A stretch of DNA of 64,000 nucleotides from assembly GCF_048403405.1 (NCBI RefSeq), contig NZ_CP183129.1. One strand, given 5' to 3'. A program made the translations under genes and the position numbers. This DNA comes from Escherichia coli. Its GTDB lineage: Bacteria > Pseudomonadota > Gammaproteobacteria > Enterobacterales > Enterobacteriaceae. Of the stretch, positions 21,899 to 21,993 are shown in pieces (the first letter of the stretch is position 1; the number at the start of each line of letters is the position of its first letter). The notes under the pieces are model-generated. The model had not been told where the DNA came from. It saw nothing but the letters and a program-made list of their open reading frames with translations, and did no database searches.

Positions 21899-21968
21899 AG
21901 ATGTTGTTCTGCCAATGTTATGCCGCTGCACCCTCAACTTACGTTATCCCAACTTGTGACTGTTATTC

Positions 21969-21993
21969 GGCGCTCCACGGAGCGCCTTTTTTT
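21969..21993 (+). terminator. Intrinsic terminator after malG (overlaps the psiE stop)
   Basis: ggcgctcc-acg-ggagcgcc followed by ttttttt. Confidence 0.6.

What the first reader, a model, noticed from the sequence alone, without database searches (positions are those of the whole stretch)
21899..21991. malG and psiE are separated by only 93 bp; xylE appears to be missing
In the K-12 map the D-xylose/H+ symporter gene xylE lies between malG and psiE. Here the malG stop (21898) is followed directly by a hairpin terminator and the convergent psiE stop (21992). No ORF with a major-facilitator signature is present anywhere between malEFG and yjbT. This points to a clean strain-specific absence or deletion of xylE.
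Basis: partly seen in the sequence, partly recalled or inferred. Interest (0 to 1): 0.45.

Follow-up and report, generated by a model that had tools for sequence, protein, structure and literature searches.

The report
Ancestral malG–psiE junction without xylE
This E. coli strain lacks the xylose transporter gene xylE between malG and psiE, but that is the original gene arrangement, shared by a third of sequenced E. coli, and K-12 is the strain carrying an extra 1.8-kb piece.

Summary
malG ends at 21898 and convergent psiE ends at 21992. The 93 bp between them hold a terminator hairpin (21969-21986) plus a T7 run, and nothing in the 64-kb window resembles XylE.

The absence is not strain-specific: 1786 of 5426 complete E. 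coli genomes, including the B2 archetype CFT073, have the same direct junction. The other 3639 carry a 1797-bp xylE segment.

It is also not a deletion scar. The same hairpin and T-run abutting the psiE stop codon are found in E. albertii, E. whittamii, two other Escherichia lineages, and most Citrobacter, Enterobacter, Kluyvera and Klebsiella species. The empty site is therefore the ancestral state and xylE is the inserted state.

The window's psiE 3' haplotype next to the junction is shared exactly by 167 xylE-negative genomes. It comes close in only 1 of 3629 xylE-positive genomes, which argues against a recent deletion from an xylE+ ancestor.

The 93-bp spacer is not empty. Its sequence is identical to the published K-12 MalH sRNA, which is derived from the malG 3'UTR.

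Absence of xylE from strain 042, with reduced growth on xylose, was published in 2010. This is ordinary and already known.

The parts
21008..21898 (+). malG (maltose ABC transporter permease), last gene of malEFG
   Evidence: ORF list. 100% match to annotated malG in TUM14771.
21890..21993 (+). MalH sRNA region: the malG 3' end, its stop codon, the 3'UTR and the terminator. Assigned by sequence identity to K-12.
   Evidence: [quoted passage not shown] The window sequence is identical to the K-12-like locus across this stretch. No variable site was found among 18 E. coli between 21802 and 21986. The 5' end given here is inferred by counting 104 nt back from the T-run.
21969..21993 (+). Intrinsic terminator of malG/MalH: a 7-bp stem, a 4-nt loop and a T7 run
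   Evidence: Terminator scan and fold. The stem is conserved with compensatory changes across genera.
21987..21994 (.). Empty xylE site: the point where K-12-type genomes carry 1797 extra bp (xylE promoter, coding sequence and terminator). The endpoint is ambiguous within the T-run.
   Evidence: Alignment of the window with L001. The interval is 7 bp in all 10 xylE- and 1804 bp in all 8 xylE+ E. coli sampled.
21992..22402 (-). psiE (phosphate-starvation-inducible protein), convergent with malG. Its stop codon overlaps the terminator T-run.
   Evidence: ORF list and annotation of the identical genome.

Best explanation
The window carries the ancestral, xylE-free allele of the malG-psiE junction. 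In this allele the malG/MalH intrinsic terminator runs straight into the psiE stop codon. K-12 and about two-thirds of E. coli carry a derived allele. There, a 1797-bp cassette (an AT-rich xylE promoter region, xylE and its own terminator) sits inside the T-run between the terminator hairpin and the psiE stop. Both alleles are old and common in E. coli and have been shuffled among lineages by homologous recombination. It takes up xylose without the low-affinity XylE symporter, presumably through XylFGH; that last step is inferred from published work on strain 042 and was not tested here.
For: 1. Frequency. 1786 of 5426 complete genomes have the direct junction and 3639 of 5426 have the xylE segment. 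The two counts sum to the 5425 genomes that matched the locus. CFT073 shows the same 93-bp spacing.

2. Outgroups. E. albertii, E. whittamii, Escherichia sp. E1V33 and MOD1-EC7003 have psiE next to malG with no xylE, as do the large majority of the other Enterobacteriaceae loci that kept both genes. In the 14 junctions aligned, the same hairpin and T-run abut the psiE stop in 13 (Kluyvera cryocrescens has about 21 extra bp), with compensatory stem changes.

3. Distribution of xylE at this site. Outside E. coli it occurs only in 8 loci of the Citrobacter freundii complex and in K. oxytoca. In K. oxytoca the cassette is flanked by an imperfect 15-bp duplication of the psiE 3' end, which is an insertion footprint.

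4. Linkage. The window's psiE 3' haplotype at 22006/22022/22024/22043 is A-T-A-C. It is shared with xylE- strains AF39, SC418, MEW, O169:H41 and O7:H15 ST70 and with none of the 8 sampled xylE+ strains. In the whole collection the best xylE+ genome has 2 mismatches to a chimeric xylE-end plus window-psiE query (NY1601, alone), and the other 24 listed have 5. 167 xylE- genomes match the window part exactly.

5. Contrast with real losses of xylE, which look different. PCN061 has an IS1-bounded deletion that removes xylE through yjbE, and other strains have IS1 inside xylE.

6. Literature. xylE absence from strain 042, with reduced xylose metabolism, is published (PMC2808357). Enrichment of xylE in the B1A sublineage is also published (PMC6896753).
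Against: 1. E. coli xylE is as divergent from Citrobacter xylE (83.5% nucleotide identity) as malG is (83.4%). xylE diversity within E. coli (pi 1.3%) equals that of the flanks. xylE is therefore old in E. coli, and vertical descent with repeated loss is not formally excluded.

2. The cassette is bounded by T-runs (T7 and T5), so a precise excision would regenerate exactly this junction.

3. In local trees the window groups with xylE+ strains NRZ14408 and KE55 on the right flank beyond about 22175 (87% bootstrap). The history of this particular clone, continuous retention or re-acquisition of the empty allele by recombination, is unresolved.

4. E. fergusonii, cryptic clade I and Salmonella were not among the 80 loci returned.

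5. Absence of xylE from the rest of this strain's genome is inferred from complementary counts. It was not checked on the genome itself.
Confidence: 0.85

Rival explanations
1. De novo deletion in this strain or clone: an xylE+ ancestor lost the 1797-bp cassette by slippage or illegitimate recombination between the two terminator T-runs.
For: The cassette is flanked by T7 and T5 runs, giving 5 nt of microhomology. The window is 100% identical over 20 kb to only 6 genomes, and several of the next-closest genomes (99.0-99.1%) are xylE+. On the right flank the window clusters with xylE+ NRZ14408 and KE55.
Against: The 50 bp next to the junction carry the A-T-A-C haplotype. That haplotype is found in other xylE- genomes and in essentially no xylE+ genome: 1 near-match among 3629. 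The same junction is present in 1786 genomes and in outgroup species.
Confidence: 0.04
2. Secondary loss by allelic replacement: the window's clonal lineage once carried xylE and later received the pre-existing empty allele from an xylE- donor through a short homologous-recombination tract.
For: The flanks are a mosaic. Near the junction (22006-22043) the window matches xylE- strains, but from about 22175 onward it matches xylE+ NRZ14408 and KE55. xylE+ and xylE- haplotypes are intermingled in both flank trees.
Against: The same mosaic is equally explained by NRZ14408 and KE55 having imported xylE into a window-like background. No clonal-frame phylogeny is available to give the direction.
Confidence: 0.25
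3. xylE is ancestral to Escherichia, Citrobacter and Klebsiella at this site and has been precisely excised many times. On this view the empty junction is a recurrent deletion product, not the primitive state.
For: xylE occupies the same site in three genera, with divergence equal to that of the neighbouring core genes. T-run repeats could mediate precise excision.
Against: This would need many independent, identical deletions, across more than 60 species in about 20 genera and at least 4 Escherichia lineages. K. oxytoca shows an insertion footprint while its sister species have the intact empty site. In the sample, xylE+ E. coli show nearly one adjacent haplotype while empty alleles show several, including those of the outgroups. 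That pattern is expected if xylE+ is the derived allele.
Confidence: 0.07

Closest known systems
malG-psiE junction of E. coli CFT073 (B2) and other xylE-negative E. coli such as EAEC 042
   Same: The gene order is malG then convergent psiE, with a 93-bp spacer and no xylE. Lack of xylE in strain 042, with reduced xylose metabolism and xylFGH present, is published (PMC2808357).
   Different: The window differs by about 1.5% in sequence from most direct-junction genomes, a group not typed here. It carries a distinct psiE 3' haplotype shared exactly with 167 genomes. The window's own phylogroup was not determined.
E. coli K-12 malG-xylE-psiE locus
   Same: The flanking genes are the same, and the MalH/terminator sequence is identical up to the T-run.
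   Different: K-12 has 1797 extra bp between the T-run and the psiE stop: a 283-bp upstream region with 34% GC, xylE (1476 bp including the stop codon) and its own terminator.
MalH sRNA (malG 3'UTR-derived, Hfq-associated, K-12)
   Same: The sequence over the 104 nt ending at the terminator T-run is identical to K-12.
   Different: Here the MalH terminator is directly convergent with psiE instead of being followed by the xylE promoter. Expression was not tested, and Rfam has no matching family.
IS1-mediated deletion of xylE in E. coli PCN061
   Same: xylE function is lost at the same locus.
   Different: PCN061 keeps 280 bp of the xylE upstream region, has an IS1 at the breakpoint, and has also lost psiE and yjbEFGH. 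The window has no scar, no IS element and intact neighbours.

Membership tests
xylE-free (empty-site) allele of the E. coli malG-psiE junction | malG and psiE convergent, separated only by the malG/MalH 3'UTR and terminator (about 93 bp) | tested here: met
   The interval is the same 7 bp between hairpin and psiE stop in all 10 other empty-site E. coli loci.
xylE-free (empty-site) allele of the E. coli malG-psiE junction | No xylE homologue at the locus or nearby | tested here: met
   tblastn of XylE against the whole window gave a best E of 3.6.
xylE-free (empty-site) allele of the E. coli malG-psiE junction | No xylE elsewhere in the genome | tested here: inconclusive
   The collection counts are complementary (1786 empty plus 3639 xylE+ equals 5425), and 3629 of the 3639 xylE copies sit next to psiE. 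The rest of the window strain's own genome was not searched.
xylE-free (empty-site) allele of the E. coli malG-psiE junction | Adjacent SNP haplotype shared with other empty-site genomes rather than with xylE+ genomes | tested here: met
De novo (strain-specific) deletion | Breakpoint scar, IS element or gene remnant, or flanks identical to an xylE+ relative right up to the breakpoint | tested here: not met
   The junction is identical to that of the outgroups. The adjacent haplotype is absent from xylE+ genomes. PCN061 provides the contrast.
MalH sRNA | [quoted passage not shown] | tested here: met
MalH sRNA | Processed, Hfq-bound transcript that regulates ompC, ompA and MicA | not testable with these tools
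   This needs RNA data from this strain. It is known only for K-12 (PMC8081044).

The most novel reading that the evidence does not exclude
The xylE cassette is a discrete module of about 1.8-1.9 kb that has entered the identical spot, the T-run between the malG/MalH terminator and the psiE stop codon, in three genera: part of E. coli, the C. freundii complex and K. oxytoca. In K. oxytoca it left a 15-bp duplication of the psiE end. Its presence or absence may change what lies convergent to psiE. In empty-site strains like this one, psiE read-through would run antisense into MalH. In K-12-type strains it would run into xylE instead. That could alter MalH/maltoporin tuning between phylogroups.
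Probability: 0.1. Interest if true: 0.35.

Novelty: already known. Interest (0 to 1): 0.08.

Why it matters
It matters little. xylE presence or absence is a known accessory-gene polymorphism of E. coli. It has a modest published phenotype: slower xylose use when only XylFGH is available. The useful corrections are about direction and scope. K-12 is the derived state and the window is the ancestral one. The trait marks whole lineages (a third of sequenced genomes), not one strain. The '93-bp gap' is the conserved MalH sRNA with its terminator, so annotators should not treat it as deletion debris.

Tried and rejected
1. An Rfam scan of 21700-22700 at E<=1 found nothing, so there is no MalH family in Rfam.

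2. I looked for a decayed psiE 3' remnant at the left edge of the E. coli xylE cassette, like the one in K. oxytoca. The local alignment scored no better than shuffles.

3. I tried to obtain the window's phylogroup from the literature on strain MS 69-1 and got no hit. The phylogroup stays undetermined. The nearest named relatives are O7:H15 ST70, O169:H41 and O139:H1.

4. The neighbour-joining tree of the right flank is distorted by short outgroup fragments (L001, L004, L006, L057). I used only its E. coli part.

5. No paper in the library mentions xylE, psiE and malG together.

6. The third-position identity comparison is near saturation between genera. It cannot separate vertical descent from an ancient transfer.

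Full report
**Observation**

The window is E. coli. The 20 kb around the finding are 100% identical to six complete genomes: 4621, MS 69-1, TUM1226, OX030728, GN02461 and TUM14771.

- malG occupies 21008-21898 (+) and psiE 21992-22402 (-), so the spacer 21899-21991 is 93 bp as reported.
- A terminator-like hairpin (GGCGCTCC ACG GAGCGCC, 21969-21986) is followed by T7 at 21987-21993. The last two T's and the following A form the psiE stop codon on the other strand.
- RefSeq annotation of TUM14771 shows malG followed directly by psiE.
- tblastn of K-12-type XylE against all 64 kb gave nothing better than E=3.6.
K-12-like genomes have malG, xylE (same strand as malG), then convergent psiE.

**Anatomy of the difference**

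The window and the K-12-like locus L001 are collinear through the malG stop, the 3'UTR, the hairpin and the T7 run.

- K-12 then has 'CTTTCGTCTGC...', a 283-bp upstream region with 34% GC, xylE, and an xylE terminator hairpin ending in T5. After that, 'ACTCCCGC' (the psiE stop and 3' end) resumes.
- The interval between the malG hairpin and the 'A' of the psiE stop is 7 bp in the window and in all 10 other empty-site E. coli loci. It is 1804 bp in all 8 xylE+ E. coli loci, so the indel is 1797 bp.
- Its endpoints fall within T-runs, with up to 5 nt of ambiguity.

**How common it is**

- Of 5426 complete E. coli genomes, 1786 have a single match spanning malG, the spacer and psiE. The rest match in two pieces that break at window position ~21993.
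- The 1791-bp xylE segment is found in 3639 genomes. 1786 + 3639 = 5425, which is every genome that matched the locus.
- 3629 genomes have xylE joined to psiE. xylE is therefore essentially never elsewhere, and empty-site genomes lack it altogether. This is an inference from counts, not a search of this strain's genome.
- CFT073, the B2 uropathogen sequenced in 2002, has psiE at 4776016-4776426 and malG at 4776520-4777410, again 93 bp apart.
- Chaudhuri et al. 2010 reported that EAEC 042 lacks xylE and metabolises xylose less well than MG1655, while xylFGH is present in both (PMC2808357).
- González-Alba et al. 2019 list xylE among transport genes enriched in the B1A sublineage (PMC6896753).

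**Direction of the change**

A scan of one genome per species with PsiE returned 80 loci.

- psiE sits directly next to malG, with no xylE, in E. whittamii, Escherichia sp. E1V33, E. albertii and Escherichia sp. MOD1-EC7003. The same holds for C. koseri and in Enterobacter, Kluyvera, Leclercia, Lelliottia, Trabulsiella, Kosakonia, Mangrovibacter and most Klebsiella/Raoultella species.
- I aligned the junctions of 14 of these loci. All show conserved blocks (ATGCCACTGC..CCTCAAC, TTGTGACTGT) and the hairpin with compensatory stem changes (GGCGCTC/GAGCGCC, GGCGGCC/GGCCGCC, AGCGGCC/GGCCGCT). In 13 of the 14 the T-run abuts the psiE stop; Kluyvera cryocrescens has about 21 extra bp in between.
- The window's junction is therefore the family-wide primitive arrangement.
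- Outside E. coli, xylE occupies this site only in eight loci of the C. freundii complex and in K. oxytoca.
- In K. oxytoca the 1909-bp insert is bracketed by TTATTCGCGTTTCAG and TTACTCGCGTTTCAG, a duplicated psiE 3' end. Its sister species K. michiganensis, K. grimontii and K. pneumoniae have the intact empty site. That is an insertion footprint.
- No such remnant is detectable in E. coli.

**Is the window a recent deletion all the same?**

This needed checking because the genomes next closest to the window over 20 kb (99.0-99.1%) include xylE+ strains: NRZ14408, KE55, T-HYM1, porcine ETEC and O139:H1.

- In flank trees xylE+ and xylE- strains are intermingled. The window pairs with NRZ14408 and KE55 on the right flank at 87% bootstrap.
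- The sites nearest the junction decide the matter. At 22006/22022/22024/22043 the window reads A-T-A-C, as do xylE- strains AF39, SC418, MEW, O169:H41 and O7:H15 ST70. Seven of eight xylE+ strains read G-C-G-T and the eighth reads G-T-A-T. Outgroups read G-C-G-T or G-C-G-C.
- Only from about 22175 onward does the window match NRZ14408 and KE55.
- I tested this on the whole collection with a chimeric query made of the K-12 xylE 3' end joined to the window's psiE 3' end. Among 3629 xylE+ genomes the best match was one strain (NY1601) with 2 mismatches in 179. The other 24 listed had 5 mismatches. 167 genomes, necessarily xylE-, matched the window part exactly.
- The empty junction is thus in strong linkage with a haplotype that xylE+ chromosomes do not carry. 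It is an inherited allele, not a fresh deletion.
- Genuine losses look different. PCN061 keeps 280 bp of xylE upstream sequence, then an IS1, and lacks xylE through yjbE. Other strains have IS1 inside xylE.

**Caveats**

- E. coli xylE is as far from Citrobacter xylE (83.5% nucleotide identity) as malG is (83.4%).
- xylE diversity within E. coli (pi 1.3%, up to 2.7% pairwise) matches that of the flanks. The xylE allele is therefore old too, and its donor is unknown.
- Because T-runs bound the cassette, precise excision is mechanically possible. I rate 'ancestral xylE with many precise losses' at about 0.07, on parsimony and on the K. oxytoca footprint.
- I cannot tell whether the window's clone kept the empty allele continuously or regained it by recombination. 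That needs a clonal-frame phylogeny.
- E. fergusonii, clade I and Salmonella were not among the loci returned.

**What the 93 bp are**

[quoted passage not shown] MalH pairs with ompC and ompA and lowers MicA (PMC8081044).

- The window is identical to K-12 across it, and no E. coli in my sample varies between 21802 and 21986.
- Rfam has no family for it.
- The overall fold is not unusually stable (z = -0.74). The terminator stem is the robust element.

**Verdict**

The state is already represented in reference genomes and in the literature, so interest is low. The only mildly novel angle is that the xylE cassette occupies the same terminator/stop-codon junction in three genera. A speculative consequence is that psiE transcription faces MalH in empty-site strains and xylE in K-12-type strains.

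Noticed in passing
L068 (K. oxytoca NBRC 105695), reverse-complement coordinates ~2574-4510: The xylE cassette (1909 bp) at the malG/psiE junction is flanked by an imperfect 15-bp direct repeat of the psiE 3' end (TTATTCGCGTTTCAG ... TTACTCGCGTTTCAG). About 170 bp of unrelated sequence lie upstream of the xylE promoter. Sister Klebsiella species have the empty site.
   Followed up: partly
window ~22490-22545 (between psiE and the 92-aa ORF at 22617-22895): The window and its near relatives lack a REP-like element of about 55 bp (GCCGGATA...GGCCGGATAAGCCGCG...) plus a further 13 bp. K-12, O157:H7, 2013C-4225 and the outgroup Escherichia species carry these here. K-12-type annotations place a 144-bp hypothetical ORF over the element.
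   Followed up: no
NZ_CM135959.1 (E. coli NY1601), xylE-psiE junction at 4543652-4543830: This is the only one of 3629 xylE+ genomes whose psiE 3' end is nearly window-like (2 mismatches in 179). It is a probable recombinant with a breakpoint at or very near the junction.
   Followed up: no
L100 (E. coli PCN061); also H31 (MB10) and H66 (2017.18.02CC): These are secondary inactivations of xylE by IS1. PCN061 has an IS1-bounded deletion running from just upstream of xylE to pgi, which removes xylE, psiE and yjbEFGH. MB10 and 2017.18.02CC have IS1 inserted within xylE.
   Followed up: partly
window 21900-21986 and the junction alignment of L003-L082: The malG 3'UTR (MalH) has sequence blocks conserved from Escherichia to Klebsiella (ATGCCACTGC..CCTCAAC and TTGTGACTGT), and the terminator stem shows compensatory substitutions. 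Klebsiella spacers carry an extra GC-rich insert of about 100 bp upstream of these blocks.
   Followed up: partly
window 14000-34000: Only 6 of 5426 complete genomes are identical to the window over these 20 kb, and just 42 records are >=99% identical. The flank haplotypes are a mosaic of pieces shared with different lineages, which indicates frequent recombination across the mal-psiE-yjb-pgi region.
   Followed up: partly
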